A stretch of 42,382 nt of DNA from Bacillota bacterium (GCA_033809435.1 JAPXLS010000001.1:1-42382); one strand, 5' to 3'; shown: positions 7,933-24,232, counted from the first letter of the stretch. Numbers and translations: made by a program. The notes: a model not told the origin generated them from the letters alone.

Positions 7933-9129
7933 TCATCTTCTCCTGCGTATAGATTTCATTTCCTCTGCAAATTCCTGCTTGATCCGCTGCAGCATGGAGG
8001 GATCTTGAAGCACTTTGAAACCGGCCAGGGCCAGCGCCTCCCCGACAACAAGCATGGTTTCGTAAGCCTGCGGCGTGTCGCTGAGCCGGGCAAATTCCAC
8101 GGTGTGCACCGCCACCTTGTCGTCGGTAATGGCCACATTGGGCTGGATGGAGGGCACCACCAGGCTCACATTGCCCATATCCGTCGATCCCAGGCCGGGC
8201 TCCTCCTCGGTCCAGGTCCTGCCGCTTACCTCATGCAGGCTTTCCCAGAACAGATCGCCCAGGGTTCTGTTGGTCAGCATGGCATCGTAGGGGTATTCGG
8301 TCTCCTCGATGGTCAACCCGGTGTCAGTGGCCAGCGCAGCGCCGCGGGCACAGTTTAGCACTTTCTCTACCACTTCGTCAAGATAGCTGTTGTCCATTGA
8401 GCGGATGCAGAACTCGGCCGAGGCGCGGTCGGGGATGATATTGACCGCCTGCCCGCCGTCGGTGACCATCCCGTGAATGCGCACATCATCACGCAGGTGC
8501 TGCCGCAAAGCGTTGATCCCGTTGAAGGTGAGGATAACTCCGTCCAGCGCATTCCGTCCATCCCAGGGATTGGCGGCAGCATGGGCATTTTGCCCGCTGA
8601 AAATAAAGGTGAATGTGCGGCAGGCCATGCTCTTGTAGTTCACGCAGGTTAGATAATCGGGGTGGAACATCATGGCCAGGTCCACATGATCAAAGACACC
8701 ACCCCGGATCAGGTCAATCTTGCCCCCGCGCCCCTCTTCATTGGGGGTGCCGATGAGCGAAAGGGTATAAGGGTGACCGGGCGAGGTCCCGGCCAGCGCC
8801 ACCGCCGCGGCAACGGAGGCTCCGGCAATGAGGTTGTGGCCGCAGGCATGCCCGATCTCGGGAAGGGCGTCATATTCGGCGCAAAAAGCGATATGGCAGC
8901 CTTTTTCCTCCGCATGGCTGCGGTAAGTAGCGACAAAGGCGGTCTCCTGGCCCGCTGTCCCTTTTTCAACTTCGAAACCCTTTGCCGCCAGGTAACCAGT
9001 AAGGATCTGTACGGCGAAGAACTCCGCATCGCCCAATTCGGGATGAGCGTGGATCTCCCGGCCAAGTCCGACAAGATTCTCTTTTTCTGCAGCAATAGTC
9101 TCCTTGATCTGTTTCCATCCATGTTCCAT
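7933..9129 (-). CDS. M20-family amidohydrolase/peptidase (M20D, AbgB/HipO-like)
   Basis: Motifs HAHPELG, AEYDALPEIGHACGHNLI and FIFSGQNAHAA. The ORF extends to 9330 but overlaps the upstream gene. The ATG at 9129 has AAGGAG plus a 9-nt spacer. An ATG at 9168 is an alternative start without an SD. Confidence 0.85.
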   Translation of the reverse strand: MEHGWKQIKETIAAEKENLVGLGREIHAHPELGDAEFFAVQILTGYLAAKGFEVEKGTAGQETAFVATYRSHAEEKGCHIAFCAEYDALPEIGHACGHNLIAGASVAAAVALAGTSPGHPYTLSLIGTPNEEGRGGKIDLIRGGVFDHVDLAMMFHPDYLTCVNYKSMACRTFTFIFSGQNAHAAANPWDGRNALDGVILTFNGINALRQHLRDDVRIHGMVTDGGQAVNIIPDRASAEFCIRSMDNSYLDEVVEKVLNCARGAALATDTGLTIEETEYPYDAMLTNRTLGDLFWESLHEVSGRTWTEEEPGLGSTDMGNVSLVVPSIQPNVAITDDKVAVHTVEFARLSDTPQAYETMLVVGEALALAGFKVLQDPSMLQRIKQEFAEEMKSIRRRR

Positions 9130-9230
9130 GTGAACAGACTCCTTTTGTTGCTTTTTTATGTCTTGCATAGCTGTTCTGCCGGCAGGCCCGGAGCACCCGC
9201 AAAGTAGGGGGAATCTCCTGCTGCCGAAGT

Positions 9231-12200
9231 CTAGCTCCCGGCAGGCTCGAGGGTCCAGTCCAGGGTGATCTCTTCCCCCGGCTGCAGCCTGAAGCCTCTT
9301 CCGCTGTTGGTATCCAGAAGCTGTTTCCAACCCTCTTCCCGGATCTCCAGGCAGAAACAGTCCCCCGCCGCCACCAGGCAGGCATAGCCGCCATCGCGCC
9401 CCACCGGCACCGCCGTCAGCGTTTCACCGGGAGCGCCATTGCGGTACCTTTTCAGGTACACATTGACGGGGTACAGGGGGGGCTCTCCGGCAAAGGCAAC
9501 CCGGCCCCGAACGCGGGCCCCGGCATCAAGGGGCAACACCAGGTAGCGCTCATCGCCGGCTGCGCTCTCTGCGGCAAAATCCCTGGATCTGTAGTTGACC
9601 CCGCCGCTTTGAGCCACGGCAAAGAGCCGGTATTCACCTGCAGGCAGGGTCAGGGTGAAGGCGCCGTCTGCGCCGGCGCGGGCTTCACCGGCAAAACCTT
9701 CGGTCATCAGATCGCCCGAGGGGTCAAGCACGCCCCGCCAGGCCCTGACCAGTGCCCCGGGAAGGGGCGCCGCAGTGGCTGCATCGAGCACCCTGCCGTG
9801 AATCTTTCCGGTCACGGCGTTCTCGGGTTCGGCGCAAACCGGTTCGGGCAGCCGGAGCGGCCAGATCTCTTTTTTGAAGGCCCGGTAGGGCTCCAGGATA
9901 TCATAAAGGGGAAACTGCCCGTCAATTGTCAGCGCATTCGCCGCTGCGGCACACTTGACGCTGAAAGAGCCGCCGGGGCGGGTCAGGGCCCGGGCCATGA
10001 TCCGGTCCAGCTTTTCCGGCCCGGCGCCGCCATCGCCGGCGGGGCGGGCGGCGGAACCGGCGCTGACCAGGCAGGAGCACTCCTCGCCGGGCCAGGCGGC
10101 GCCAACCCTGCCGCTCAGGGTCTGCGCAGCGCCGGTGAGAAGCTCAAAGGTCAGCTCGGCGGCTCTCACCGCGGAGCGGGTGGCATCATCAATGGCCAGC
10201 AGCGGCGCCAGCCAGTGCACCCGGTTGCAGTTTTCCAGCTCCTCAACGGCAAAGGCCCATCCCTCGCGATAATCGAAGCGTACCGGGGGCATCATCAGGA
10301 AGGGCACCCGAAAATCCTGGAACATGTCCGCGGTCTCCCGGGGCGGCTCGATCTCCTGATCGCAAAGCAGGCACCTGCAGCCGTCTCCCCGGGCCGCCGT
10401 CAGCTTGAGCTGCAGGGGCATTTGGGAAAGCGGCAGGTCCAGATAGAGATGGATATAGCTCGACATGACCGCCCTGGCGGCGCTATTCCCGGCATCTGGA
10501 GCGAGGCGGTAAAAGTCTCCCCAGCTGATCACATCATCCCCGTAGGGGGAGATCACCTCCACGCTGCGGGTGCGGTAGTAGGATTGGGTCACCGCCCCGG
10601 CATTAATCGGTTTGCATGAACGGCGCCACCTTTCCTGCGGTATGGTCAGGGTAAGTGCGAACCGGTCCTTTCCGGAGTCTATGGTGCGCGGCAGTGCTGT
10701 CTCCGCGCTCCTCTCCCGCGGGGCGGGCACCAGGGCAGGGTCGCCCAGCAGGGTCTGCTGCTGCAGCGCTGCGGCGGTCCACCACTTGTAACAGCCGTAC
10801 CGTTCCGGGGCCTTCTGTTGCATGATGGATGCGTAAAGGCTCACAAAGTTGCGGGTTTCCCGGAGCGCCTGGCCCACGCTGAGCCCCTTTACCAGCAGCT
10901 TTTCAAAAAAGAGGGGATAGATGGAGGTAGCAAACTGCAGATCCACCATGGTGCTGCCCCCCACATAGCAGAGAGCCCCTTTTTCCACCATGGCCAGGCC
11001 GAATTGATCGCGGTAAGGCACTGGAATGCTCTCCCAGTCCAGTCCGTCGGAAGCCGAGCTCCAGTACGGGTCCATCCCTGCCGTGGTGCAGGCCGAAGCA
11101 TAAGCCACCAGCGGGGGCAGAGCGGGCAGATCGCGGCGGGTGAGAAACCGCCCGCAGGTTTTCAGCGCCTCGGTGGTGCCGTGGCCGGCGAAAAGAAAGA
11201 AATCACTTTGCTCCAGGGCCCGGGAAATCCGGGCGGCGCTTGCCTCCTTCCCTTCCAGTATGGTCACCCTGTGGCCGCAGCTCTCCAGGTGCGGCACGAA
11301 CTGGCTTTCCAGCAGCGGGTCATCGGAATTGAAAATTATCTTGTAATCTATTTCCGGGCTGGCTGCCACCAGCATTCTTTTGCCTTCGCCGCTCTGCATG
11401 CCCTGCAGGCGGTGAAAGTACTTCGTGGAAAGCAGCTGCGCGGAAAGGCCGCCGGGGCTGGACTGAAAAAGGCGCCCTTCGGCGGTATCGAAAAAGAGGT
11501 CGTCATTCAGGCGCAGGTGGATGTCCCGGGCCAGCTCCTCGGTGGTGCTGCCGATGGTCCGCTGCGGCTCGTAGAGGAGGGGGATGGCGCCGGGCGAGGC
11601 CAGGATAGCCATGTACGCGGGGTGCAGGCCCGCCTCGGCCGCAAAGCGGTTTAACTCCTCTTCGATGAGAGCAGGTGCGGGTTGCTCCGCCTCCGCATCA
11701 AAGGGAAAGAGGGAACGGTACGAGGCGCAGAGCGGGGCCAGCAGGCTCAGGCCCCTGACCCAGGCCTGTCCCGGTGACAGCGGCGCCGCTGTTTCCCTGA
11801 CCAGGTCGGCGGAGTTGTACAGAAGCAGGTAATCTATTTGCAGGCCCTGCTCCAGCATATATTCTGCCAGGGCCCCATCGCCGGGCAGGGCGGTGATCCG
11901 GGCAGACCCCGCAGCCCTGGAAAGCTCCGCAGGCGGCTCTTCCCGGCCCAGCCAGATGAGCGGCCCGGTATATTCCGAACCGCAAATAGATGAAAGCTCG
12001 CTGGTTTCGCTGCCCGCACCGCCGCAAGGGAGGAAGATAAAGCCCAGGCGCACCGCCAGGACCGCCCCTTTCAGGCAGCGGGCGGGATCAGCGGCAGGGG
12101 CACAGACCAGTCCGGCCGGCGGACCGAAAGGCCCCCCAAGCCGGAACAGGCCGGCGCCGGAATCCGCCTGCTCCGGCGCCGCTGCCACCCGCAGCTCCGG

Positions 12201-12449
12201 GGCTGTGCGCAGGGCCTGGCCAAAGGCGGCATGGCCCGTGGCATCGGTAATCCTCAAGGGGAGCCGCAAGGCAAGCAGCTTGAGGGCAAAAATTTCATCA
12301 TCACTTTTTTCGGGATCAACAAGAAATATGTCGCTGCCCGGCCTGGATAGGGCGGCTGTCATCAGCGGCAGACTGCGCTGCCAGTCCGAAACAGACAGCA
12401 GCAGGATTTCGATTGTTTCTGTCACGGCCAGTTGCACCTCCGAAATCAT
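9231..12449 (-). CDS. large (1072 aa) protein with C25/gingipain-like clan CD peptidase motifs and C-terminal carboxypeptidase-regulatory-like repeats; paralogue A
   Basis: Uninterrupted 3.2-kb ORF. Motifs DYLLLYNS, AILASPGAIP, DDLFFDTAEGRLF and FFLFAGHG-(31 aa)-ASACTTAG form a candidate His/Cys dyad, followed by LLGDPALVP. The C-terminal GKIHGRVLD..PGALVRAWRG..GAFTLTLPAGEY is CarboxypepD_reg-like. No signal peptide. An alternative GTG start at 12425 has a GGAGGTG SD with a 9-nt spacer and aligns with the paralogue's start. Confidence 0.75.
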   Translation of the reverse strand: MISEVQLAVTETIEILLLSVSDWQRSLPLMTAALSRPGSDIFLVDPEKSDDEIFALKLLALRLPLRITDATGHAAFGQALRTAPELRVAAAPEQADSGAGLFRLGGPFGPPAGLVCAPAADPARCLKGAVLAVRLGFIFLPCGGAGSETSELSSICGSEYTGPLIWLGREEPPAELSRAAGSARITALPGDGALAEYMLEQGLQIDYLLLYNSADLVRETAAPLSPGQAWVRGLSLLAPLCASYRSLFPFDAEAEQPAPALIEEELNRFAAEAGLHPAYMAILASPGAIPLLYEPQRTIGSTTEELARDIHLRLNDDLFFDTAEGRLFQSSPGGLSAQLLSTKYFHRLQGMQSGEGKRMLVAASPEIDYKIIFNSDDPLLESQFVPHLESCGHRVTILEGKEASAARISRALEQSDFFLFAGHGTTEALKTCGRFLTRRDLPALPPLVAYASACTTAGMDPYWSSASDGLDWESIPVPYRDQFGLAMVEKGALCYVGGSTMVDLQFATSIYPLFFEKLLVKGLSVGQALRETRNFVSLYASIMQQKAPERYGCYKWWTAAALQQQTLLGDPALVPAPRERSAETALPRTIDSGKDRFALTLTIPQERWRRSCKPINAGAVTQSYYRTRSVEVISPYGDDVISWGDFYRLAPDAGNSAARAVMSSYIHLYLDLPLSQMPLQLKLTAARGDGCRCLLCDQEIEPPRETADMFQDFRVPFLMMPPVRFDYREGWAFAVEELENCNRVHWLAPLLAIDDATRSAVRAAELTFELLTGAAQTLSGRVGAAWPGEECSCLVSAGSAARPAGDGGAGPEKLDRIMARALTRPGGSFSVKCAAAANALTIDGQFPLYDILEPYRAFKKEIWPLRLPEPVCAEPENAVTGKIHGRVLDAATAAPLPGALVRAWRGVLDPSGDLMTEGFAGEARAGADGAFTLTLPAGEYRLFAVAQSGGVNYRSRDFAAESAAGDERYLVLPLDAGARVRGRVAFAGEPPLYPVNVYLKRYRNGAPGETLTAVPVGRDGGYACLVAAGDCFCLEIREEGWKQLLDTNSGRGFRLQPGEEITLDWTLEPAGS

Positions 12450-12484
12450 TGTCTTTGCAGTGCAAAGGTGTAATTTACATATTT

Positions 12485-15400
12485 TTAGCTCTCATCGGGT
12501 ACGAGTGTGTAGTCCAGGGTGATCCTGTCACCGGGCGATACCCTGTAACCGCGCCCCCCGTGATCATCCCTGATGGGCTGCCAGCCTTCCTCCTCGATCC
12601 AGACATAGAAACGGTCCTGGAAGCTCACCAGGCAGGAATAGGTGCCGTCAGGCCGCACCGGCGTGGAGACAAGGATCCTGCCGCCTTCCTTTTCAGGAAA
12701 AAGCATCACACAGACGATCACGGGATGGGGCGGCGGCAGGCCGCGAAAATTCAGACTGCCGGCAACCACCGCAGCGGCATCAAGGGGCAGCAGCAGGTGC
12801 TGCTCCTCGCCGGCAAAGAGCTCGATGTTCAGCGATGTGGATTTGTACTGCACCCCGTCATGGCGCCCCACGGCGGAGAGGATGTACTTTCCTGCAGGCA
12901 GATCAAAGGCAAAGGCGCCGCCGGCATCGCTGACGGCCTCACCGGCAAAGCACTCGATGAGGGGATCGCCCACGGGATCTTCAATGCCGCGCCAGACCCT
13001 GATCAGCACACCGGGCAGCAGGGAGCCGCTTCTCGAATCAAGGGCCTTTCCGCAAATTTTCCCCGTTGCCGCCGGGCGAAGATGGATCACCGGCTCCTGC
13101 AGCGGCAGCGCAAGATGCTCTTTCTGAAAGCCGCGGCAGGGCTCGGGCAGCTCATACAGGGGATACTGCTCCGAGATGAGCAGCACATTGGCGGCGGCGG
13201 TGCAGGTTAGCTCGAATGATCCCCCCGGGCGGCTCAGCGCCTGGGAGACTATGTTCAAGGGCCTTTCCGGCGCTGTCGCCGGTGAAGACCCGCCAGCCCC
13301 CGCCGGGCCCGCTGCAGGCGCAGCGGCGGCGCTGATAAGATAACTTCCGCCGGAGCCGGTTCCGCTGTCCCCGGGCGCCGCGATGATACCTGTAACCTCC
13401 TGTCCCGCCGATGTCTCCACTTCAAAAAGGAATTCGGAGGCTCTCACAGCTGCCTGCGCCGCTTCATCAATAACCAGTGCCGGCACCAGCCAGTGAATGC
13501 GCGGGCCTTCTCCCGGGCCCCGCTCTTCCAGGGCAAAGGCCCACCCGGAAGTCATATCCAGACGGCTGGGAGGCAGGAGCAGGTAGGGGATGCGAAAATC
13601 CTGAAAAGCCTCTTTCAGGGCAGCGGGCGCCCGGACCTCCTTGCCGCAGAGCAGGCATTCGCTGCCGGCCGCCCTGACCTCCACCAGGTTCAGGCGAACG
13701 GGCCAACGCCCCGGCGGCAGGTCGAGATGCAGGTGCAGGTAGCTGGACATGAGCGCAGCCTCGCTGATGCCCCCGGCGTCGGGGGCAATGCGATAGTAAT
13801 CCCCCCAGCTGATAACATCTTCACCCACCGGAGCCAGCACCTCGATGGAACGGCTGCGGTAGTAGTACTTCGAAGGCGGCAGGGGGCTGACCGCTTTCCT
13901 CACGCGGCGCCAGCGATCGTCGGGTATGGCCACCCGGAGCCGGCAGTGATCCCCATCCATTTCTGTTTCCTGCGGCAGCGCCATGTCCCCGGAGGCCGGC
14001 TTCGGCGAGGGGACCAGGGCCGGATCACCCAGCAGGAGCTGCTGGTGAATGGTGTTGGCCATGCCCTGCTTGTAGCAATCATAGCCCTGCGGTGATTTTT
14101 GTTGCAGCATGGAGGCATAGATGCTGATAAAATGGCGCATCCTGCGCACGGCCTCTCCCACGCTGCAGCCCTTGATCAGCAGCGCCTCCATGAAAATGCC
14201 GAAAATGGAGGTGCTGTATTGCAAGTCCTCGATAGTGGTGCCGCCCACGTAGCAGAGGGCCCCCTGTTCCACCATGGCCAGGCCGAAGACGTCGCGGGCC
14301 TGCACGGGGATATGCTCCCAGTCGAGGCCGTCGCTGGTGGAATAATGGTGCGGGTCCACCGCTGCCGTGGAGCAGGCCGTGGCAAAGGCGATGAGCGGGG
14401 GCAGCCCGGGCAACTCCCTGCGCGATAAAAAACGCCCGTGGGCATGCAGCGATTCCTGCCCGCCATGCCCGCTGTAAAGGAAGAAATCGGACCGGGTGAG
14501 CGCCGCGGCAATGGCGGTATAGTGGGCCTCCTCACCGGCAAGGGTGCTCACCCGGTGCCCCGCCTTCTCCAGAAGCGGTTTCAGCTGGGCCTCGATCTGG
14601 GCCTCATCGCTGGTGAAGATGATCCCGCCTTCCACATGCGGCGTCATCACCACCAGGACCTCTTTCCCATCTTTACCGGCCGCACCGCCGCCCCCAAAGC
14701 GGTAAAAATGCTTTGTGGAGATGAGCTGTCCGGAGAGGCCGCCGGGCGTGGACTGGAACAGGCGTCCTTCAGCCAGATCAAAGAAAAGATCGCCGTTCAG
14801 CTGGAGGTGGATCTCGCGGACCGCCTCCTCGCTGCGACTGCCGATGGTGAGACGGCGGTCATAGATAAAGGGCACCGCTCCAGGCGAAGCCAGTATGGCC
14901 TGGTATTTCGGCCTCAGCCCCGCCGCGGTGACAAAGCTGTTCAGATCCCTTTCGATGGCCCGCGCATCGGGCTGCGCTGCGGAGACATCATAGGGCATGA
15001 CGGGGCGGTAAGAGGCGCAAAGCGGCGCAAGCAGGCTCAATCCCCTGACCCGAAAATCGCCCATTGATCGGGAGGGGGCCGGCCGCGCCAAAATATCGTC
15101 GGAGTTGTACAGGAGCAGGTAATCGGGCGCCGGCTCTGTTTGCTGCAGGAGCTCAGCCAGGGCGGTGTCGTCGGGGATGAACGATATTTTTTGCAATCCG
15201 GCGCTCTCCAGCCCGTCGTGCTCTCTTTTCCGCCCCAGGCAGATGAGGGGTAGCCCTTTCGGCAGCGGGAGCATCCCGGTAAGGTGCTCCAGAGGCAGGA
15301 AGCAATAGCCCAGGCGGACAGCCAGCACCGCTGCTTTCAGGCAGCGCGCGGGATCTTCCCGGGAGGCGGACACGAGGCCGTGCAGGGGGCCGAAGCGCTC

Positions 15401-15691
15401 CTGCAGCAGTTTCGCCTCTATCGCTGCGGGCATGTCCCCGGGTACAACCAGGGGCGCCAGCTCCGGGGCACGGTGGAGGTCCCGCCCGAACCGGGGATCG
15501 CCGGTGGCATCTTCAAGGGCCAGCGGCAGCCTTTCAGCCAGCAGTTTCAAAGCGGCAAGCTCGGTCTCGCTCTCGCCGGGGTCCACCCAGAATACCTCGC
15601 AGCCCGGCTGCGAAAGAGAGGCGGCCGAGTAAACCAGGCCGTCAAGCCAGTGATCTATGGAGAGGATGATTATGTTCAGCTTTTGGCGCAT
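12485..15691 (-). CDS. large (~1068 aa) protein with C25/gingipain-like clan CD peptidase motifs and C-terminal carboxypeptidase-regulatory-like repeats; paralogue B
   Basis: The ORF runs to 15880, but the ATG at 15691 is preceded by AAGGAGA with a 5-nt spacer and aligns with the N-terminus of paralogue A (MRQKLNIIILSIDHW vs VTETIEILLLSVSDW). Motifs FFLYSGHG-(31 aa)-ATACSTAA, LLGDPALVP and GKICGKALD..PGVLIRVWRG..GAFAFDLPAGKY. Confidence 0.75.
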   Translation of the reverse strand: MRQKLNIIILSIDHWLDGLVYSAASLSQPGCEVFWVDPGESETELAALKLLAERLPLALEDATGDPRFGRDLHRAPELAPLVVPGDMPAAIEAKLLQERFGPLHGLVSASREDPARCLKAAVLAVRLGYCFLPLEHLTGMLPLPKGLPLICLGRKREHDGLESAGLQKISFIPDDTALAELLQQTEPAPDYLLLYNSDDILARPAPSRSMGDFRVRGLSLLAPLCASYRPVMPYDVSAAQPDARAIERDLNSFVTAAGLRPKYQAILASPGAVPFIYDRRLTIGSRSEEAVREIHLQLNGDLFFDLAEGRLFQSTPGGLSGQLISTKHFYRFGGGGAAGKDGKEVLVVMTPHVEGGIIFTSDEAQIEAQLKPLLEKAGHRVSTLAGEEAHYTAIAAALTRSDFFLYSGHGGQESLHAHGRFLSRRELPGLPPLIAFATACSTAAVDPHHYSTSDGLDWEHIPVQARDVFGLAMVEQGALCYVGGTTIEDLQYSTSIFGIFMEALLIKGCSVGEAVRRMRHFISIYASMLQQKSPQGYDCYKQGMANTIHQQLLLGDPALVPSPKPASGDMALPQETEMDGDHCRLRVAIPDDRWRRVRKAVSPLPPSKYYYRSRSIEVLAPVGEDVISWGDYYRIAPDAGGISEAALMSSYLHLHLDLPPGRWPVRLNLVEVRAAGSECLLCGKEVRAPAALKEAFQDFRIPYLLLPPSRLDMTSGWAFALEERGPGEGPRIHWLVPALVIDEAAQAAVRASEFLFEVETSAGQEVTGIIAAPGDSGTGSGGSYLISAAAAPAAGPAGAGGSSPATAPERPLNIVSQALSRPGGSFELTCTAAANVLLISEQYPLYELPEPCRGFQKEHLALPLQEPVIHLRPAATGKICGKALDSRSGSLLPGVLIRVWRGIEDPVGDPLIECFAGEAVSDAGGAFAFDLPAGKYILSAVGRHDGVQYKSTSLNIELFAGEEQHLLLPLDAAAVVAGSLNFRGLPPPHPVIVCVMLFPEKEGGRILVSTPVRPDGTYSCLVSFQDRFYVWIEEEGWQPIRDDHGGRGYRVSPGDRITLDYTLVPDES

Positions 15692-15951
15692 GATGTTCTC
15701 CTTGCAAGAAAATATAATCGGATTTACCCTCCGGGGGCCCGTTAACCCGGCGGCAAGCAGGGCGAGGCATGCCTCTCCCCTGCGGCTGGAACGCGGTATC
15801 GTTGCAGCACCTGTCGGAGCGGGGCAGCGGGCGGGCGATGCTCGTTCCTGCAACAACCGGATGACCTGATAAGCGGACAACCCGGGGTGATGCGCTTCAG
15901 CGGGCGGACGGTGCTCACCCTAGGACCCGAAACTGTGAGCAATGCCCGCCC

Positions 15952-16941
15952 CTAGGGCTGGAGCAGGTGGCAGGCGGCGAAGTGGCCGGGCCGGACCTCC
16001 CCGTATGCAGGCGCCACCTCCCTGCAGCGCTTTTCAGCCACGGGGCAGCGGGGGTGGAAACGGCATCCCGCAGGTATATTCACCGGATCGGGTGTTTCTC
16101 CCTTCAGCAGCGACTGATGGGTGATCACCTTGCGCCGCGGTGTGGGAATGACCGACACCAGAGCTTTGGTATAGGGGTGCAGCGGCTCCTTGATCACCGT
16201 ACCGGCGTCGCCCAGCTCCACGATCTTGCCCAGGTACATGATGGCAATCCGGTCCGAGACCAGCCAGGCCAGGGAGAGATCGTGCGTGATGAAGAGGTAG
16301 CTGATCCCCTTTTCGTCGCGCTGGTCCACCATGAGCTTCAGGATATCGGCCCGGATGGACAGGTCGAGCATGGAGACGGGTTCATCGGCCACGATAAACT
16401 TGGGGCCCAGGACCAGCGAACCGGCTATGGCCATTCTCTGGCGCTGCCCGCCGCTGAGCTCGTGGGGGTAGCGCATAAATAGTTCGCGCGGGTTGTGCAG
16501 CCCCGCATCGATGAGGGCCTGCGCCACGCGCTCCTCCTTTTCCTCATGGCTGTGGCAGAGGTTGTTCACCTCCAGGGGCTCGGCAACGGCGTTGAATACC
16601 GTCTGGCGCGGATTCAGCGACTCGTAGGGATCCTGGAATATGATCTGGGCCTCCTGGCGAAAGGAGCGCAGCCTGGTGCGATTGTAGGCGCGGACATCTT
16701 CGCCGTTGTAATCAATCTTCCCCCCTGTTGGCTCCACAAGCCTCAGGATGGCTTTGCCAGTGGTGGTCTTGCCGCTGCCCGATTCCCCGGCCAGGCAGAG
16801 GATTTCGCCCTGGCCCAGCTCGAAGCTGATCCCGTCCACAGCCCGGACCACGGGTGTCTCCCGGCCGAACATGGATTGCAGCAGGCCGGCCCGGACGGCA
16901 AAGTGCACCTCCAGCCGGTCCACACTGATCAGACTATTCAT
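15952..16941 (-). CDS. Opp/Dpp-type ABC transporter ATP-binding protein (OppF-like)
   Basis: Walker [10 protein letters not shown], signature LSGGQRQR, Walker [13 protein letters not shown], and a C-terminal oligo_HPY-type Cys motif (CRFHPRCP). The ATG at 16941 overlaps the upstream stop (ATGA). The longer ORF to 17025 is an extension. Confidence 0.9.
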
Positions 16942-17912
16942 GATCTCACCCGCCTCTCCAGTAGATGGCATGACGCATAGTGCTTTCCGCCCATGTCTAC
17001 CCTGGGCGGCTGCTGCTCCCGGCAAATGGGCAGGGCCTCGGAGCAGCGCTCATGGAAGCGGCATCCCGAAGGCGGCTGAAGCAGGTTCGGCGGGCTGCCC
17101 GGAATGGAGGAAGCCAGGGCGCGATCCCCCTCGATGTCGGGAAAAGCGACCATCAGCGCCCGTGTGTACGGGTGAGCCGGCCTGGTGAAAACCTGTTCCA
17201 CGGGGCCGAGCTCGGCAATCTGGCCGGCATACATCACCGCCACCCGGTCACAGGTTTCGCCGACAACGGAGAGATCGTGGGTGATCAGGATGAGTCCCAT
17301 CTTGATCTCGTCCCGCAGATGCTGCAACAGCTGCAGGACCTGCGCCTGCACCATCACATCAAGGGCGGTGGTGGGCTCGTCTCCGATGACCAGTTTGGGG
17401 TTGCAGGAGATGGCCATGGCGATCATGGCCCGCTGCCGCATCCCACCGCTGAATTCGTGGGGATATTCTTTGACCCGGTCCGGGTCTATCTCCACCTTTT
17501 CAAAGAGGTCCCTGGTGCGCTTCCAGGCCTCCCTGTCGGTCAGCTTTTCATGAATCTTCAGAGCCTCGGCAATCTGCTCGCCAACGGTGCGCACCGGGTT
17601 CAGCGCATTCATGGCCCCCTGAAATATGATGGAGATCTCTTTCCAGCGGATCTGTTTCATCTCTTCTTCCGCGGCCGTAACGATCTCCCTGCCCTCCAGT
17701 TTAATGCTGCCGCCAACAATGGAGGCATTCTCGGGCAAAAGTTTGATCAGGGAAAGGGCCACCGTGGTCTTGCCGGAAGCGGATTCCCCGACGAGGCCCA
17801 AAGCCTCACCTTTACCCAGGCTCAGCGATACGGATTCGCAGGCCCTGACGCGCCCCTGTTTGAGTTTGTAGTACGTGGTCAGATCGTTTACTTCGAGCAG
17901 GGTCACGATCAA
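16938..17912 (-). CDS. Opp/Dpp-type ABC transporter ATP-binding protein (OppD-like)
   Basis: Walker [10 protein letters not shown], signature FSGGMRQR, Walker [13 protein letters not shown], and C-terminal CRFHERC. The track start is TTG at 17912. A GTG at 17906 has better spacing from the AAGGAGG SD. Confidence 0.9.
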
Positions 17913-18814
17913 CGCCTCCTTAATTTCGGATTCAGCACTTCATCCAGGGCATAACCCACAAAGGTGAATCCCAGCACTACCAGCACCACGCAGACACCGG
18001 GCGGTATGAGCCACCACCAGGCCCCGAATGAAACTGCTCCCATGTCAAAGGCGAAATGAAGCATCATCCCCCAGCTGAGCCGGGTGGGATCGCCCATGCC
18101 CAGGAAGCTGAGGGTCGTCTCCGACAGAATGGCCACCGCCGCCACCAGGATGGTATTGGCGAAAATGAGCGGAAAGACATTGGGCAGGATATGATGCACC
18201 ATGATGTGCGCATCTCCGGAGCCGATGGCCCGGGCCCGCTCCACGTAGGGCCTCTCCTTGATGCTCAGCGTCTGGGAGCGGATGATCCGGGCCGTCCCCG
18301 CCCAGCTGGTGATGCCGATGACAAAGATGATGTTCCCCAGGCTGGGCCCCAGGAGGGCGGCCATGACCAGCATCAGGGGCAGCCAGGGTATGACGAGAAA
18401 GATATCGGTAAAACGCATGAGCAGCGTATCCACGTTTTTGCCGTAGTAGCCGGCGGCTATCCCGATGATGGCGCCGATGACCATGGAGATGACCGTTGCG
18501 GCCAGGCCGACAAGAAGCGAAATCCGCGAGCCTATGACCACCCCGGCAAAGACATCCTTGCCCAGGTCGTCGGTGCCCAGCCAGTGCTCGGGCCCCGGCG
18601 GCAGCAGGACCTTTTCAATCCCTTCAATGGCGCTGGTGTAGGTGACGAAGTAAGGCCCGATCAGGGCCATAAGCGCAAAGAAGAGCAAAATGATCAGTCC
18701 CACAATACCCATGGCATTCTCGCGGTAGACCCCCCAGAAGGAGGCCAGGTTTTTCTTCATCAAGGCAAAGCGATCTTTTCTTTTTTTCGTCTGCAACGTA
18801 ACCAGCCCCTCCAT
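17909..18814 (-). CDS. Opp/Dpp-type ABC transporter permease (OppC-like)
   Basis: 301 aa. Multi-TM with the BPD_transp_1 EAA-like region (ARAIGSGDAHIMVHHILPN). The ATG overlaps the OppB-like stop (TGATG). Confidence 0.9.
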   Translation of the reverse strand: MEGLVTLQTKKRKDRFALMKKNLASFWGVYRENAMGIVGLIILLFFALMALIGPYFVTYTSAIEGIEKVLLPPGPEHWLGTDDLGKDVFAGVVIGSRISLLVGLAATVISMVIGAIIGIAAGYYGKNVDTLLMRFTDIFLVIPWLPLMLVMAALLGPSLGNIIFVIGITSWAGTARIIRSQTLSIKERPYVERARAIGSGDAHIMVHHILPNVFPLIFANTILVAAVAILSETTLSFLGMGDPTRLSWGMMLHFAFDMGAVSFGAWWWLIPPGVCVVLVVLGFTFVGYALDEVLNPKLRRR

Positions 18815-19785
18815 CAGGATTTCACCCGGGGATCAAGGTAGCGGTAAAGTAGATCGGCGCACAGGTTGGCGCCGACGACACAGACCGTCACAAAGAGAAA
18901 GATCCCCTGCAAAAGAGGGTAGTCGCGGCCCATCAGCGCCGTGTACATCAATCGACCCAGTCCGGGCCAGGAAAAGACCGTCTCGATCTGGATCGCTCCG
19001 CCCACAATGAAGCCCAGGTTCATCGCAATGAGGGTGACCATGGGCAGCATGGCATTGGGCAGGGCATGCCGCCGCAGCAGGTTCCGGTTGGTGACCCCCT
19101 TGGCCCTGGCCGTGAGCATGTAATCCTCGCTCATCACTTCCAGCAGGGAGTTGCGCATGATCAGAACATATTCTCCAATAAGGATCACTCCAAAGGTAAC
19201 TGTGGGCAAAAACATGTGTTTTAACAGATCGCCCAACTGACCCCAAATGGAAGCAAATTGAACGCCGGGGACTCCCATACCGCAAATGGGGAAAATGCCC
19301 AGGTAAACCGCAAAGAGCATCACCATGAGAATGCCGACCCAGAAAGAGGGCATGGAGTAGAGCACGAGGGACAGGGAAAGCCCTGCTATGTCCAGCTTGC
19401 TGCCCCTTTTCCAGGCGAAGACCACCCCCAGAACAACACCAATGACAATGGAGATCAGGGTTGCCGTGCCAGTGAGAAGCAATGTGGGAGGAAGCTTTTC
19501 CATGATCACATCAAGAACAGGTTTGCGGTAAACAAAAGAGTGCCCCAGGTTACCCATGCACAGGTCGCGCAGGTAATAGCCGAATTGGATAATTTTGGGC
19601 TTGTGCAAACCAAACTGCTCTGAAATTCGTTGCAGCGCCGCCGCCGAGATCCTGGGATTGCGGATGAGTATCCGCACGGGATCCCCGGGCATGATCCTGA
19701 AGAGAAAGAAGTTCAGGATCAGCACAACAAAAGTTGTTAGAAATGTTTGCCCCAACTTGCGCAGGACATATCCCCGCGTTTTCAA
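18814..19785 (-). CDS. Opp/Dpp-type ABC transporter permease (OppB-like)
   Basis: 323 aa. The N-terminus MKTRGYVLRKLGQTFLT..PGDPV is typical of OppB/DppB. EAA-like ARAKGVTNRNLLRRHALPNA. TTG start with a GGAGGTG SD and 8-nt spacer. Confidence 0.9.
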   Translation of the reverse strand: MKTRGYVLRKLGQTFLTTFVVLILNFFLFRIMPGDPVRILIRNPRISAAALQRISEQFGLHKPKIIQFGYYLRDLCMGNLGHSFVYRKPVLDVIMEKLPPTLLLTGTATLISIVIGVVLGVVFAWKRGSKLDIAGLSLSLVLYSMPSFWVGILMVMLFAVYLGIFPICGMGVPGVQFASIWGQLGDLLKHMFLPTVTFGVILIGEYVLIMRNSLLEVMSEDYMLTARAKGVTNRNLLRRHALPNAMLPMVTLIAMNLGFIVGGAIQIETVFSWPGLGRLMYTALMGRDYPLLQGIFLFVTVCVVGANLCADLLYRYLDPRVKS

Positions 19786-19818
19786 GTTGATTGCACCTCC
19801 ATCCGGTCCCTATTCAGG

Positions 19819-19851
19819 GCGGGGGCCCGGCCTCTCCGGACAGGCCCCCGC
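19819..19851 (-). other. strong GC-rich stem-loop between the binding-protein and permease genes (no U-tract)
   Basis: A 9-bp outer stem GCGGGGGCC/GGCCCCCGC plus a 3-bp inner stem. It lies 34 nt downstream of the SBP stop. Confidence 0.5.
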
Positions 19852-19884
19852 GCAAAGGACGCTATTTAGCGTTTAAGCTGACAG

Positions 19885-21519
19885 TTAGTTGACCGGTTCC
19901 AGTTTTTCGTAAGTTTCAACAGTGTTCGTAAAGACCACCGGACCGCCGGCCGGATTCTGGATCCAACCCTTGAAGCGGTCAGTGCGGTAGGCCTGCAGCT
20001 CGGGATCGTACGAGATGATGATGTAGGGGGCATCCTCGTATACCATCCGCTGCAATTCAAAGATGAGCTCCTGCCTTTCTTTATGATCCAGGGTAACCTG
20101 CTGCTTCTTGATCAGTTCGTCATATTCCGGGTTGGAATAGAAACAGTCGTTCCAGGACATGATCTCATCGGTGGTCATGATCTTCAGGATGGAAGAGGGG
20201 TCCACATCCACGAACCAGCCCCAGAGGAAGAGATCAAAATCACCTTCCATAATCTTGTCGGTGAGCATGCCCTCATCAATGCTCTCAACGTTGAGATCAA
20301 TGCCCGCATCCATGAACCATTCTTTCATCAGCTTGGCTGCTTTCTGGCCGTCAGGTGACTCCCCGCGAACAAGCAAGTTGAAGGAAAGTGGGCTGCCGTC
20401 GGCGCTCACCCTTATACCATCGGCCCCAGTTTTGTATCCCGCCTTCTCAAGAATCTGCTTCGACTTTTCAATGTCAAAACCACGGAACTCATTGGCACCA
20501 AGCTCCAGGTGCCAAAAGTCATAGATGGGAGGGCAAAGGGTTGAGCCGACTTCACCGTAACCAAAGTAGGCCATTTCAATTATTTTTTCCCGGTCAATGG
20601 CATGCTCCATGGCTGCACGGATCTTCTGATCAAGGAGCAGCGGATTGCCCTTGGATTCCGGATCATCCCAGACATTGATGGCCATCTGGTTGAAGGAGGG
20701 AGTCATGGCGTCGTGCAGGACAATCCCCTCGGGGGCCTCATCCTGCAGGGCCTTGAACTGGGCGCCCGGGCAGGAGGTGATCACGTCGATATCGCCGCGC
20801 TTGAACGCCTCAACCATGAGATCCGCATTGGCAAAAGTCTGAAAGATTACCTCGTCAATTTTGGGGGCTCCCTTGAAATAATCCTTGTTAACGGCCATCC
20901 TGGTATATTCCCCGGTGACATGCTCGACGACCTGGAAGGGGCCGGTGCCGATGGGTTCTGAATTTTCATAATCGCTGTCTGCCTCTTCGGGATCAACGTT
21001 TTCCCAAATATGCTTCGGTAGAATGGGAACCAGGATGTTCGGCATCCAGGCAACAGGTTCATCAAAGCTAAGCGTCAGGGTATGCTCATCCAGGGCCTGG
21101 ATGTCTTTCATCTCTGCAACATAATCAATAAGGTAACCCATTTCATTGTCGCGAATGTACTCAAAGGTGAACTTGACATCCTCGGCGGTAAAGGGCTCGC
21201 CGTCCTGCCATTTGACCCCTTCATGGAGCTTGAAGGTCCAGGTCAGGCCGTCATCGGTAACCTCCCATTCATCGGCAAGATCGGGAACGGGGTCCATATT
21301 CTCATCCCAGCTGATCAGCTTGTTGTAATTGAGGTTCATCACCTCGTAAGCCTGATAGGACCAGACGGTCATGGGATTCAGTCCCTCTATTTCTCTCAAG
21401 AACCCTATCCGCAAAACATGCCCGGCCGTTTCGGGCTCACTGCATCCAACCAGGCCGGCCAGAAGAGCCAGTGCCATTACCGAAGCCAGTACGATCAACA
21501 AGCGGGTCCGTCTAACCAT
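19885..21519 (-). CDS. ABC transporter substrate-binding lipoprotein, family 5 (peptide/nickel/opine type), copy 1
   Basis: 544 aa. Signal peptide with lipobox LAGLVGC. SBP_bac_5-like core (..ADEWEVTDDGLTWTFKLHEGVKWQDGEPFTAEDVKFT..). AAGGAGGA RBS. Confidence 0.9.
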   Translation of the reverse strand: MVRRTRLLIVLASVMALALLAGLVGCSEPETAGHVLRIGFLREIEGLNPMTVWSYQAYEVMNLNYNKLISWDENMDPVPDLADEWEVTDDGLTWTFKLHEGVKWQDGEPFTAEDVKFTFEYIRDNEMGYLIDYVAEMKDIQALDEHTLTLSFDEPVAWMPNILVPILPKHIWENVDPEEADSDYENSEPIGTGPFQVVEHVTGEYTRMAVNKDYFKGAPKIDEVIFQTFANADLMVEAFKRGDIDVITSCPGAQFKALQDEAPEGIVLHDAMTPSFNQMAINVWDDPESKGNPLLLDQKIRAAMEHAIDREKIIEMAYFGYGEVGSTLCPPIYDFWHLELGANEFRGFDIEKSKQILEKAGYKTGADGIRVSADGSPLSFNLLVRGESPDGQKAAKLMKEWFMDAGIDLNVESIDEGMLTDKIMEGDFDLFLWGWFVDVDPSSILKIMTTDEIMSWNDCFYSNPEYDELIKKQQVTLDHKERQELIFELQRMVYEDAPYIIISYDPELQAYRTDRFKGWIQNPAGGPVVFTNTVETYEKLEPVN

Positions 21520-23094: not shown

Positions 23095-23250
23095 TGTTTT
23101 ACCTCCTCTGCAACTGTCATTCGCCCCTTATCCCGCTATGCCGCCTGCGTCCCGGGATTCCGGGACCGGCAAAGCGGGGTGTGTTCCACCGCATCGAAAA
23201 AGCAATTTTGCCGGCCCTTCAGGATCGGGAAAACAGGTAAGCGCCGGAAC

Positions 23251-23901: not shown

Positions 23902-24232
23902 CACTATCCCTCCCCAAATTAGGTGCTGAAACCGCAACAACAAATATTTCTGTAAAAAGCCCTTTCCAAAAGAGCAGCTTTGCAATCATATTCTTTCGGG
24001 CTACGGCCCTGTTCCCCGGGAACAGGCGGCGGCCGATATTAACAGAGTGAAACTCTTTTTATCTCCCCCGCTCGATTATATATTTTTACACTGCGCTCCG
24101 CCATAGCTGTTTTGCGAAGGTCCCCGACAGGTTATATTTTAAACCAGTTCTGCACAATATGCCATGGCAACTCTTGCTCTGAAAAGGGGCCGGGGCGGAG
24201 GCAGGTATAGACAGGGGTATGCGCCGGCGACC

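What the first reader, a model, noticed from the sequence alone, without database searches (positions are those of the whole stretch)
9231..15691. Two tandem ~1070-aa paralogues with gingipain-like (C25, clan CD) His/Cys motifs, no signal peptide and the highest GC content in the window
Seen: two adjacent same-strand ORFs 35 nt apart, alignable along their length (89 of 141 residues identical in one stretch counted by hand). Each has four parts. First, a ~230-aa N-terminal region without motifs I recognise. Second, a central region with DYLLLYNS, AILASPGA(I/V)P, DLFFDxAEGRLF, FFL(F/Y)xGHG, then 31 residues later A(S/T)AC(T/S)TA, and LLGDPALVP. This spacing and context resemble the His-Cys dyad and the closing GDP motif of peptidase family C25. 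Third, ~300 aa of unknown nature, including a CxCxxC element in copy A. Fourth, two carboxypeptidase-regulatory-like beta-sandwich repeats. Neither has a signal peptide, lipobox, TM segment, SLH or sortase signal at the RBS-supported starts. Local GC is very high (50 of 60 in 10021-10080 by hand count). Inference: these are cytoplasmic or non-classically exported clan CD proteases, or pseudo-proteases, of unknown role. I cannot name a characterised homologue.
Basis: partly seen in the sequence, partly recalled or inferred. Interest (0 to 1): 0.7.

Follow-up and report, generated by a model that had tools for sequence, protein, structure and literature searches.

The report
Signal-less gingipain-family proteases in Opp operon
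Two adjacent genes encode large, probably intracellular relatives of the gingipain cysteine proteases; they belong to a small, uncharacterised family of anaerobic Firmicutes that in its main clade always sits directly behind a peptide-importer operon, next to methyl-transfer and peptidase genes, which points to a role in breaking down imported peptides.

Summary

The C25 (clan CD) interpretation is supported. Both pass Pfam's Peptidase_C25 cutoff. A confident AlphaFold model matches gingipains RgpB and Kgp in Foldseek at probability 1.0. Profile alignments put the family-invariant His409 and Cys440 on RgpB His211 and Cys244.

No member has a signal peptide or room for one, whereas the operon's two binding proteins have textbook lipoprotein signals.

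The high GC reflects Ala/Gly/Pro/Arg-rich composition; GC3 equals that of the neighbours.

New here: the family is tiny (about 12 clusters at 50% identity; about 25 of 185,579 species genomes). In about 20 of 20 informative main-clade loci the gene directly follows oppF, in a conserved array of corrinoid protein, MttB, SBP, OppBCDF, one or two C25-like genes, then usually a C45 hydrolase and an M20 peptidase.

The tandem pair is a recent duplication, and copy A has diverged near the active site.

Best reading: active intracellular endopeptidases acting on Opp-imported peptides, analogous to opp-pepO in Lactococcus. Substrate and localisation are untested.

The parts
12485..15691 (-). Gene B: signal-less C25-family cysteine peptidase, 1068 aa (ancestral-type copy)
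   Evidence: ORF; AAGGAG RBS and ATG; PF01364 at 30.7 bits against a cutoff of 23; AF2 model with pLDDT 87.3; Foldseek hits to gingipains
9231..12449 (-). Gene A: paralogue of B, 1072 aa from the ATG (probable true start GTG 12425, giving 1064 aa); derived copy
   Evidence: ORF; 49% identity to B; PF01364 at 24.4 bits against 23; start-site argument; derived motifs near the active site
15128..15691 (-). B residues 1-188: N-terminal alpha/beta domain specific to this family; no Pfam match and no significant PDB fold match
   Evidence: Domain model with pLDDT 90.3; best Foldseek hit E = 1.2e-3, TM below 0.32; no Pfam hit at E<=0.01 in more than 3 of 26 members
14006..15127 (-). B residues 189-562: C25 catalytic domain. 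N-terminal subdomain of four strands (191-195, 231-235, 263-267, 307-310) plus caspase-like C-terminal subdomain of six strands (344-351, 380-386, 403-406, 434-437, 480-483, 552-554)
   Evidence: Secondary structure of the model compared with the RgpB description in PMC4357240; Foldseek; Pfam; hhalign
14465..14467 (-). B His409 codon (CAT), proposed catalytic His in GHG, at the end of strand 403-406
   Evidence: Invariant in 29 of 29; aligned to RgpB His211; codon verified
14372..14374 (-). B Cys440 codon (TGC), proposed catalytic Cys in ACST, at the end of strand 434-437
   Evidence: Invariant in 29 of 29; aligned to RgpB Cys244; codon verified
14606..14608 (-). B Asp362 codon (GAT), invariant Asp at the N-terminus of helix 360-376; candidate S1 specificity residue (tentative)
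   Evidence: Invariant. Aligned to RgpB Asp163, but instead aligns Ser361 with Ser150 and Glu363 with Glu152. The alignment agrees with the secondary structure
13082..14005 (-). B residues 563-870: beta-sandwich region after the catalytic domain, with the near-invariant Cys679-x-x-Cys682
   Evidence: All-beta in the model; pilin/TIE-type beta-sandwich hits in Foldseek; conservation
12485..13081 (-). B residues 871-1068 plus stop codon: two prealbumin/CarboxypepD_reg-like beta-sandwich domains
   Evidence: Pfam CarboxypepD_reg or SpaA in 12 and 6 of 29 members; PDB profile hits to intradiol-dioxygenase-type sandwiches; model
11181..11183 (-). A His423 codon (CAC)
11088..11090 (-). A Cys454 codon (TGC)
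15952..21519 (-). Upstream, same strand: SBP_bac_5 lipoprotein (19885-21519), OppB, OppC, OppD and OppF (15952-19785); an Opp/Dpp-type ABC importer
   Evidence: Pfam; lipobox in the SBP; oppF lies directly upstream of the C25-like gene in about 20 of 20 informative main-clade loci
21661..23985 (-). MttB-superfamily methyltransferase (21661-23094) and its corrinoid protein (23251-23985)
   Evidence: Pfam; NCBIfam score 315.9 against the 525 cutoff for true trimethylamine MttB, so a non-canonical member; present in 15 of 15 loci with a full upstream flank
7933..9129 (-). Downstream M20 amidohydrolase (probable start ATG 9129)
   Evidence: Pfam; TIGR01891 at 192.3 bits against a cutoff of 153.75; conserved downstream in most loci; start site

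Best explanation
Genes A and B encode catalytically competent cysteine endopeptidases of the gingipain family (MEROPS C25, clan CD) that stay in the cytoplasm. Each protein has a family-specific N-terminal alpha/beta domain, a gingipain-like catalytic domain with two subdomains, and a tail of beta-sandwich domains. The catalytic domain carries His409/Cys440 (B) or His423/Cys454 (A) at the ends of consecutive strands. The genes are co-transcribed with an Opp-type peptide importer and with exopeptidase or amidase genes (M20 here; C45 plus M20 in relatives). The proposed mechanism is as follows. The lipoprotein SBP and OppBCDF import oligopeptides. The C25-like enzymes cut them internally, possibly after a cationic residue if the invariant Asp362 lines the S1 pocket as Asp163 does in RgpB. 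The M20 and C45 enzymes finish the hydrolysis. The co-encoded MttB and corrinoid pair removes methyl groups from a methylated amine product. This is functionally analogous to the Lactococcus oppDFBCA-pepO operon, but uses a protease family so far known only from secreted enzymes. The tandem pair arose by a recent duplication; B keeps the ancestral active-site surroundings and A has diverged, which suggests a second specificity. What is shown: fold and family, invariant dyad, absence of export signals, conserved synteny, duplication history. What is inferred: catalytic activity, cytoplasmic location, peptide substrate, P1 preference, and the link to methyl transfer. Approximate component probabilities: C25 fold with a functional dyad 0.9; cytoplasmic 0.75; acts on Opp-imported peptides 0.55.
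For: Family and fold: PF01364 above its gathering cutoff in both proteins and matched in 28 of 29 members. AF2 model pLDDT 87.3, pTM 0.91. Foldseek probability 1.0 to RgpB and Kgp, target TM-score 0.51-0.56 over 441-534 columns. The model has 4 + 6 strands, as in the RgpB N- and C-terminal subdomains described in PMC4357240. Dyad: His409, Cys440, Gly408/Gly410, Arg310 and GDPA are invariant in 29 sequences that go down to 31% identity. hhalign maps Arg310 to Arg112, His409 to His211 and Cys440 to Cys244, with RgpB numbering verified on 4ief_B. No export signal: all 29 N-termini align at one start, are interrupted by acidic residues, and form strand 5-11 and helix 12-26 of a domain modelled at pLDDT above 90. 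In L003 and L004 the oppF-to-gene gap is 18 nt, and the ORF extension upstream of B is not conserved as coding sequence. The SBPs of the same operon have clear lipoprotein signals, which serves as a positive control. The proteins have 18-22 Cys each. Context: oppF is directly upstream in about 20 of 20 informative main-clade loci that are only 41-72% identical; corrinoid-MttB-SBP-OppBCDF is upstream in 14 loci, and L017 has MttB downstream; C45 and M20 lie downstream in most. No terminator or sigma-70 promoter signal above chance within 9000-16100. GC3 equals that of the neighbours. Analogy: oppDFBCA-pepO is one operon in L. lactis (PMC3138775). Duplication: A-type and B-type are sister clades nested among single-copy lineages.
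Against: No experiment exists for any member. All characterised C25 enzymes are secreted, and Ig-like or prealbumin-like beta-sandwich tails are typical of surface proteins (the top Foldseek hits are pilins and adhesins). Both hhalign alignments are statistically weak (E = 0.012 and 0.14), PDB sequence searches do not reach gingipains, and a 3D superposition could not be run. The Asp362 to Asp163 assignment differs between the two alignments. The Pfam match covers only the C-terminal half of the model (positions 217-373 of 374). The architecture also occurs outside the Opp/MttB context, in the Symbiobacteriaceae-type subgroup (L002, L027-L029) and in the sister group P0077, so the operon link is lineage-specific. 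These genomes are very rich in MttB genes (Ca. Formimonas; PMC9768040), so MttB adjacency could partly reflect gene density. SBP_bac_5 proteins also bind nickel, opines and other ligands.
Confidence: 0.5

Rival explanations
1. The proteins are exported by a non-classical route (no Sec, Tat or lipoprotein signal) and act outside the cell, like a cell-envelope proteinase. They would cut environmental proteins into peptides that the adjacent Opp system then imports.
For: Every characterised C25 peptidase is extracellular (PMC4357240). The C-terminal two thirds consist of beta-sandwich domains whose best structural matches are pilins, adhesins and S-layer proteins. More distant relatives with the same catalytic domain (P0112, P0130) have N-terminal hydrophobic signal sequences. 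Placement next to an importer fits either side of the membrane.
Against: None of about 60 clusters has a signal peptide, lipobox, TM segment, SLH or sortase motif. The N-terminus is a structured core strand and helix. Secreted proteins of the same operon carry normal signals. No secretion-system genes are conserved nearby. The proteins contain 18-22 cysteines, including a conserved CxxC.
Confidence: 0.15
2. The catalytic domain does not serve bulk peptide catabolism. Instead it acts as a specific processing protease or transpeptidase/ligase, as PorU does within C25 and as GPI8 and legumain-type ligases do within clan CD. Possible targets are an imported compound or one of the operon's own proteins.
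For: Clan CD enzymes are typically highly specific, often regulatory, and several are transamidases (general knowledge of clan CD; the specificity table in PMC4357240). The large non-catalytic domains (N-terminal alpha/beta domain, CxxC sandwich) suggest substrate recognition rather than open proteolysis. The architecture also occurs outside catabolic operons.
Against: In the main clade the gene is flanked by an importer on one side and by general amidohydrolases (C45, M20) on the other, which is a catabolic layout. No candidate precursor or target gene is conserved next to it.
Confidence: 0.15
3. The Opp-like transporter imports a non-proteinaceous cationic amide (an opine-like or polyamine-, guanidino- or betaine-conjugated compound), and the C25-like enzyme hydrolyses that amide bond rather than a peptide bond between standard amino acids.
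For: The SBPs score similarly against oligopeptide (Opp4A), nickel (NikA) and staphylopine (CntA) binding-protein models, all below cutoff. MttB and corrinoid genes are always linked. An agmatinase-type ureohydrolase lies upstream in L001, L006 and L010. An SbnB/OCD-family dehydrogenase lies in the window at 27628-28659. An invariant Asp may line the S1 pocket.
Against: No direct evidence on the ligand. The best SBP match is to an oligopeptide binder. The S1 Asp assignment is ambiguous.
Confidence: 0.15
4. One or both copies are catalytically dead pseudo-proteases that serve as scaffolds or binding proteins.
For: Copy A has clade-specific substitutions around the active site (PE(I/V)DYK for PHVEGG, GHGT for GHGG, ACTT for ACST). 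Its Pfam score barely passes (24.4 against 23).
Against: His, Cys, the flanking glycines, Arg310, Asp362 and GDPA are invariant in all 29 sequences, including the A-type clade. Conservation of this kind at 31-50% identity implies selection on catalysis.
Confidence: 0.04

Closest known systems
Gingipains RgpB and Kgp of Porphyromonas gingivalis (MEROPS family C25, clan CD; PDB 1CVR, 4IEF, 4RBM, 6I9A)
   Same: Same Pfam family above cutoff. Same catalytic domain layout of two subdomains (4 + 6 strands), with His after one strand and Cys after the next. His-Gly and Ala-Cys motifs. The conserved Gly-Arg motif of the N-terminal subdomain (Arg310, matching Arg112). The closing GDP motif. Beta-sandwich domain(s) directly after the catalytic domain. 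Possibly an Asp in the S1 pocket.
   Different: About 10-13% sequence identity. No signal peptide, no Propeptide_C25 prodomain (an unrelated alpha/beta domain sits in its place), and no T9SS C-terminal domain. Found in Bacillota, not Bacteroidota. About 500 extra C-terminal residues, including a CxxC sandwich and two CarboxypepD_reg-like domains. Encoded in a catabolic importer operon rather than as a virulence factor.
Lactococcus lactis oppDFBCA-pepO operon (oligopeptide importer plus cytoplasmic endopeptidase PepO)
   Same: An intracellular endopeptidase gene attached to the 3' end of an Opp ABC importer operon; the logic of import followed by endo-cleavage and then exopeptidases (PMC3138775).
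   Different: PepO is a metalloendopeptidase unrelated to clan CD (my own knowledge, not tested here). The Lactococcus operon has no methyltransferase or corrinoid genes. This is an analogy of function and gene layout, not homology.
Other clan CD families (separase C50, caspases and metacaspases C14, legumain C13, clostripain C11)
   Same: The caspase-haemoglobinase fold with a His/Cys dyad. Weak Pfam C50 hits over the same region (17.9 and 15.6 bits). C14 and C50 enzymes are intracellular (my own knowledge).
   Different: The C50 scores are below the cutoff of 27.8. Only gingipains appear among the protease hits in Foldseek. The extra N-terminal four-strand subdomain is a C25 feature.
Uncharacterised 'C25 family cysteine peptidase' entries in NCBI for Bacillota MAGs and Ca. 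Formimonas warabiya DCMF
   Same: These are members of this same family (41-66% identity to B, about 1050 aa), already named by automatic annotation.
   Different: The name is only a family label. No publication found here discusses their lack of export signals, their architecture or their operon.

Membership tests
Peptidase family C25 (gingipain family), clan CD | Significant match to the family profile (Pfam PF01364) above the curated cutoff | tested here: met
   30.7 bits (B) and 24.4 bits (A) against a cutoff of 23, covering only profile positions 217-373 of 374; 28 of 29 family members match at E<=0.01, best 6.3e-11
Peptidase family C25 (gingipain family), clan CD | Caspase-haemoglobinase alpha/beta fold with the C25-specific extra N-terminal subdomain (10-stranded sheet, 4 + 6) | tested here: met
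   Foldseek probability 1.0 and target TM-score 0.51-0.56 to 1cvr, 4ief, 4rbm and 6i9a. The model has strands 191-195, 231-235, 263-267, 307-310 and 344-351, 380-386, 403-406, 434-437, 480-483, 552-554, compared with the description in PMC4357240.
Peptidase family C25 (gingipain family), clan CD | Catalytic His at the C-terminal end of one strand (His-Gly) followed by catalytic Cys at the end of the next strand, in that order | tested here: met
   His409 follows strand 403-406 and Cys440 follows strand 434-437. Both are invariant. They align to RgpB His211 and Cys244 (numbering verified). Spacing is 31 residues, against 33 in RgpB. The alignments are statistically weak and no 3D superposition was done
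Peptidase family C25 (gingipain family), clan CD | Acidic S1 residue conferring Arg/Lys specificity (RgpB Asp163) | tested here: inconclusive
   The invariant Asp362 aligns with Asp163 and sits at the N-terminus of the equivalent helix, but one search aligns that segment differently
Peptidase family C25 (gingipain family), clan CD | Ig-like beta-sandwich domain immediately after the catalytic domain | tested here: met
   An all-beta region starts at residue 574. The RgpB alignment spans 441-455 columns of a target of 423-432 residues that includes its IgSF domain
Peptidase family C25 (gingipain family), clan CD | N-terminal inhibitory prodomain (Propeptide_C25) removed on activation | tested here: not met
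   No PF08126 hit, whereas true gingipain relatives have one. The N-terminal 188 residues form an alpha/beta domain with no significant fold match. This is a feature of gingipains proper rather than of the whole Pfam family
Peptidase family C25 (gingipain family), clan CD | Secretion (signal peptide; T9SS C-terminal domain in Bacteroidota members) | tested here: not met
   No signal peptide in any of the 29 aligned members and no TM segment; no PF18962-type domain
Peptidase family C25 (gingipain family), clan CD | Cys-dependent peptidase activity | not testable with these tools
   Requires enzymology
Opp-linked cytoplasmic oligoendopeptidase (functional class, e.g. PepO) | Gene co-located and co-oriented with an Opp importer; no export signal | tested here: met
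   About 20 of 20 informative main-clade loci; no terminator signal above chance; no signal peptide
Opp-linked cytoplasmic oligoendopeptidase (functional class, e.g. PepO) | Hydrolysis of imported oligopeptides in vivo | not testable with these tools
   Requires genetics and biochemistry
Anti-phage defence protease (clan CD effectors) | Match to a known defence-system protein model | tested here: not met
   No PADLOC hit at E<=0.01; the neighbourhood is metabolic

The most novel reading that the evidence does not exclude
The conserved array (sigma-54 activator ... corrinoid protein, MttB, SBP, OppBCDF, one or two C25-like peptidases, C45, M20) encodes an undescribed anaerobic pathway for a cationic, N-methylated peptide-like nutrient. 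Opp imports it. An intracellular gingipain-type endopeptidase cuts after the cationic (Arg/Lys-like or trimethylammonium-bearing) residue, which is recognised by the invariant Asp362. The C45 and M20 amidases release the methylated amine, and the non-canonical MttB/corrinoid pair feeds its methyl groups into the Wood-Ljungdahl pathway. That would give the first intracellular, metabolic role for a C25 protease and a new substrate class for the MttB superfamily.
Probability: 0.2. Interest if true: 0.75.

Novelty: new variant of a known kind. Interest (0 to 1): 0.45.

Why it matters
Gingipain-family (C25) proteases are known as secreted virulence factors and surface-processing enzymes. A conserved, signal-less family with an intact catalytic dyad, wired into an importer and methyl-transfer operon, would extend C25 to intracellular catabolism. 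It would also give a handle on what the many orphan MttB-superfamily methyltransferases of anaerobic Firmicutes use as substrates. The family is small, has one cultured host (Ca. Formimonas warabiya DCMF), and makes concrete, testable predictions: a Cys-dependent endopeptidase with possible basic P1 specificity, cytosolic location, and co-induction with opp and mttB. Practical significance is otherwise modest. The family label already exists in databases, and no function has been demonstrated.

Tried and rejected
(1) PDB sequence searches with the full-family profile and with a catalytic-region-enriched profile did not reach any clan CD structure; they returned only weak beta-sandwich hits. 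The second profile still came out with 1052 positions because the full-length rows dominated. (2) Tat-signal idea: B's ORF extension contains 'SSRRGEACLALLAAGLTG'. Rejected because L001 has in-frame stops there, L003 and L004 have no room for it, and the ATG at 15691 has a strong RBS. (3) Horizontal-transfer reading of the high GC: rejected, because GC3 equals that of the operon neighbours and the excess comes from amino-acid composition. (4) N-terminal domain as a gingipain-type prodomain or CWB2-type wall-binding repeat: no Pfam hit and no significant Foldseek hit. (5) Defence-system protease: no PADLOC hit. (6) Regulatory RNA in the 260-nt oppF-B spacer: no Rfam family at gathering threshold anywhere in the window, and only patchy conservation with L001 and L006. 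(7) The unannotated 1072-aa protein near the divergent member in L002 (966-4184) as a second paralogue: no similarity. (8) Literature: no paper found on this family or on an MttB-Opp-C25 linkage. The Ca. Formimonas metaproteomics paper and its stored supplements (one of them truncated) do not mention C25 or the peptidase. (9) Context of the sister group P0077/P0086 and of the Symbiobacteriaceae-type subgroup: unrelated to Opp/MttB, so it does not help with function.

Full report
OBSERVATION. The two ORFs are real and lie on the minus strand: B at 12485-15691 (1068 aa) and A at 9231-12449 (1072 aa from the ATG). They align end to end with 49% identity (524/1074, E = 0). The His-to-Cys spacing is 31 in both. 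CxCxxC is specific to A, and the best 141-column window has 90 identities. The hand count of 50 G+C in 10021-10080 is exact. The region has GC 0.639 against 0.551 for the window and contains the window's GC maximum.

There are three refinements. First, A most likely starts at the GTG at 12425 (GGAGGTG, 9 nt, GTG), which gives MTETIEILLL like its orthologues. Second, B's ORF runs 63 codons further upstream and encodes a Tat-like 'SSRRGEACLALLAAGLTG'. This is not coding: the relative L001 has in-frame stops there, L003 and L004 leave only 18 nt between oppF and the gene, and the ATG at 15691 has an AAGGAG RBS. Third, the high GC is not a sign of foreign origin. GC3 (0.755) equals that of oppC/D/F, mttB2 and the MATE gene (0.76-0.79), and the excess comes from an Ala/Gly/Pro/Arg content of 35-36%.

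WHAT THE PROTEINS ARE. Pfam Peptidase_C25 (PF01364) passes its curated cutoff in both proteins (30.7 and 24.4 bits against 23), although only over the C-terminal half of the profile. Weaker, sub-threshold hits to separase (C50) cover the same region. Of 29 aligned family members, 28 match PF01364 at E<=0.01.

An AlphaFold2 model of B built on that alignment is confident (pLDDT 87.3, pTM 0.91). Foldseek against the PDB returns gingipains Kgp (4rbm, 6i9a) and RgpB (1cvr, 4ief) at probability 1.0, with target TM-scores of 0.51-0.56 over 441-534 columns. These are the only protease catalytic domains in the top 50 that align with a target TM-score above 0.5. The remaining hits are pilin-, adhesin- and S-layer-type beta-sandwich arrays, plus SpyCEP-type serine proteases at target TM-scores below 0.1, and they account for the C-terminal part.

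The model's secondary structure reproduces the RgpB layout described in the clan CD review PMC4357240: a four-strand N-terminal subdomain (residues about 189-340) and a six-strand caspase-like subdomain (344-554), followed by beta-sandwich domains.

PDB sequence searches could not reach gingipains. I therefore took the RgpB catalytic-domain sequence from memory and verified that it is identical to chain 4ief_B over residues 1-433, which fixes His211 and Cys244. I then aligned it, and a 16-sequence gingipain profile built, to the family profile. Both alignments are statistically weak (E = 0.012 and 0.14). Both place FFLY(S/T)G-His409-G on NYTG-His211-GS and AEG-Arg310-LF on FIG-Arg112-FS, and the profile-to-profile alignment also places A-Cys440-ST on A-Cys244-VN.

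His409, Cys440, their flanking Gly and Ala, Arg310, Asp362 and the closing GDPA are invariant across 29 sequences that go down to 31% identity. A dead pseudo-protease is therefore unlikely for either copy.

The S1 determinant remains tentative. Asp362 aligns with RgpB Asp163, and like Asp163 it sits at the N-terminus of the first helix of the caspase-like subdomain. One search, however, aligns that segment differently.

OTHER DOMAINS. Residues 1-188 form a confidently modelled alpha/beta domain (pLDDT 90.3). It has no Pfam match and no significant PDB fold match (best E = 1.2e-3, TM below 0.32). It is not the Propeptide_C25 domain that true gingipain relatives carry.

Residues 563-870 are beta-sandwich and contain a near-invariant Cys679-x-x-Cys682 of unknown role.

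Residues 871-1068 form two prealbumin/CarboxypepD_reg-like sandwiches. The Pfam score is sub-threshold in the window proteins, but 12 of 29 members match, with a best E of 9.7e-10.

EXPORT. None of the 29 aligned members has an N-terminal extension. All start at the same aligned position, with a short strand and helix that belong to the folded N-terminal domain and are interrupted by acidic residues. No TM-like segment exists. As a positive control, both solute-binding proteins of the same operon have textbook lipoprotein signals ending in LVGC. The proteins carry 18-22 cysteines. A cytoplasmic location is therefore the most economical reading, though it is not proven.

DISTRIBUTION. The word-indexed search found 59 clusters at 90% identity, all about 1050 aa, from Bacillota metagenome bins and Ca. 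Formimonas warabiya. Several are auto-named 'C25 family cysteine peptidase'. An exhaustive profile search of 1.84 billion representatives clustered at 50% identity found only about a dozen full-length representatives. The thousands of other hits match only the C-terminal repeats. Among 185,579 species-representative genomes, 27 loci in about 25 genomes were found. They are bins labelled Syntrophomonadaceae or Bacillota, Ca. F. warabiya DCMF, a divergent Symbiobacteriaceae subgroup, and one Limnocylindrales-labelled bin that is probably a binning artefact. The exact sequence of B occurs on 18 metagenomic contigs.

CONTEXT, THE MAIN NEW RESULT. In the window, one minus-strand array runs as follows:
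- sigma-54 activator with PAS domains (28955-30808)
- OCD/SbnB-family dehydrogenase
- MttB (second copy)
- SBP_bac_5
- corrinoid protein
- MttB (first copy)
- SBP_bac_5
- OppB, OppC, OppD, OppF
- B
- A
- M20 amidohydrolase
- MATE transporter

I used the window's proteins as tblastn probes on 32 fetched loci. The C25-like gene directly follows oppF in every main-clade locus with upstream sequence (about 20 of 20, at 41-72% identity to B). Corrinoid-MttB-SBP-OppBCDF lies upstream in 14 loci, and Ca. F. warabiya has MttB immediately downstream instead. A C45 autoproteolytic hydrolase and an M20 amidohydrolase follow in most loci, and an agmatinase-type ureohydrolase precedes the array in three. 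No terminator or sigma-70 promoter signal above chance lies within 9000-16100.

The linkage is lineage-specific. The Symbiobacteriaceae-type subgroup (35-37% identity) and a more distant signal-less sister group (P0077 and P0086, which keep the His and Cys) sit in unrelated neighbourhoods. More remote relatives of the catalytic domain (P0112, P0130) are ordinary secreted-type proteins with signal sequences.

THE TANDEM PAIR. Only the window's closest clade (window, L001, L006, L007, L009) has two copies; all other lineages have one. In a neighbour-joining tree, A-type and B-type are sister clades nested among the single-copy lineages. B keeps the ancestral motifs near the active site (PHVEGG, GHGG, ACST). 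A has clade-specific replacements (PE(I/V)DYK, GHGT, ACTT, KWW) but retains the dyad and Asp. This fits duplication followed by a change of specificity in A.

MECHANISM. The best-supported reading is that these are active intracellular C25 endopeptidases that cleave oligopeptides imported by the co-transcribed Opp system. The C45 and M20 enzymes would complete hydrolysis, and the MttB and corrinoid pair would demethylate a methylated amine product. The layout parallels the Lactococcus oppDFBCA-pepO operon (PMC3138775), but with a protease family previously known only from secreted enzymes.

Rivals: non-classical export with extracellular action (0.15); a specific processing or transpeptidase role (0.15); hydrolysis of a non-proteinaceous cationic amide (0.15); pseudo-protease (0.04).

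Weak points: there is no experimental evidence; the residue-level alignments are weak and no 3D superposition was done; the S1 assignment is ambiguous; these genomes are rich in MttB genes; and SBP_bac_5 proteins can bind many kinds of ligand.

NOVELTY AND VERDICT. The family label (C25) already exists in automatic annotation, so this is not a new kind of protein. What differs from every characterised C25 enzyme is the combination of four things: no export signal or prodomain, a new N-terminal domain, a long beta-sandwich tail, and strict embedding in an importer, peptidase and methyl-transfer operon. No paper found here describes any of this. I rate it a new variant of a known kind, with interest 0.45.

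Noticed in passing
window 21661-30808 (minus strand): Upstream of the Opp genes the array holds a second module: a sigma-54 enhancer-binding protein with PAS domains (28955-30808), an OCD/SbnB-family dehydrogenase (27628-28659), a second MttB homologue (26086-27627) and a second SBP_bac_5 lipoprotein (24305-25945). Both MttB homologues score about 316-328 bits against the 525-bit cutoff for true trimethylamine methyltransferase, so both are non-canonical members with unknown substrates.
   Followed up: partly
window 15692-15951 (minus strand); L001:9764-10000; L006:9771-10000: The oppF-B spacer is unusually long (260 nt, against 18-60 nt in single-copy relatives). It is GC-rich and contains inverted repeats (for example GAGGCATGCCTC in the window and CCCCCCTTTGCAAAAGGGGGG in L001 and L006), with patchy conservation. 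There is no Rfam match. It could be an internal attenuator, a processing site or a REP-like element.
   Followed up: partly
window 13646-13657 (B Cys679/Cys682); 10362-10379 (A Cys691/693/696): A near-invariant CxxC (ECLLCG) lies in the beta-sandwich region after the catalytic domain, extended to CxCxxC in copy A only. Whether it is a metal site, a redox switch or a disulfide is unknown.
   Followed up: no
window 124-4549: A cluster of mobile-element genes lies just beyond the MATE gene: an IS21-type IstB ATPase (124-876), an AAA_22 ATPase (1834-2646), an rve-family integrase/transposase (2627-4009) and a DUF6431 protein (4052-4549). An AT-rich stretch (GC 0.41 at 5001-6000) follows, carrying an RNase T/BRCT exonuclease gene.
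   Followed up: no
window 34966-41292 (minus strand): A RuBisCO-like protein (34966-36132) lies next to split transketolase subunits (36148-38104), a DeoR regulator, an IF-2B/MtnA-family isomerase (38962-40053) and an APH/MtnK-like kinase (40063-41292). The layout resembles methylthioribose or 5-deoxyribose salvage (DHAP-shunt-type) clusters.
   Followed up: no
L002:15279-19000; L027:16121-18732; L028:9127-11717: In the divergent Symbiobacteriaceae-type subgroup, the C25-like gene is followed about 5-8 kb downstream by a pair of ABC exporter genes (ABC_membrane plus ABC_tran) at similar spacing in three loci. This may be plain synteny among close relatives or a different functional linkage.
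   Followed up: no
L001:771-1724; L006:684-1589; L010:850-1746: An agmatinase-type ureohydrolase (TIGR01230 at 201.5 bits against a cutoff of 174.3) directly precedes the corrinoid-MttB-Opp-C25 array in three loci but is absent from the window. This hints at guanidino-compound metabolism in the pathway.
   Followed up: partly
window 7933-9330: The M20 ORF as listed (TTG 9330) overlaps the end of gene A. The likely real start is ATG 9129, preceded by AAAGGAG, which leaves about 100 nt between A and the M20 gene.
   Followed up: yes
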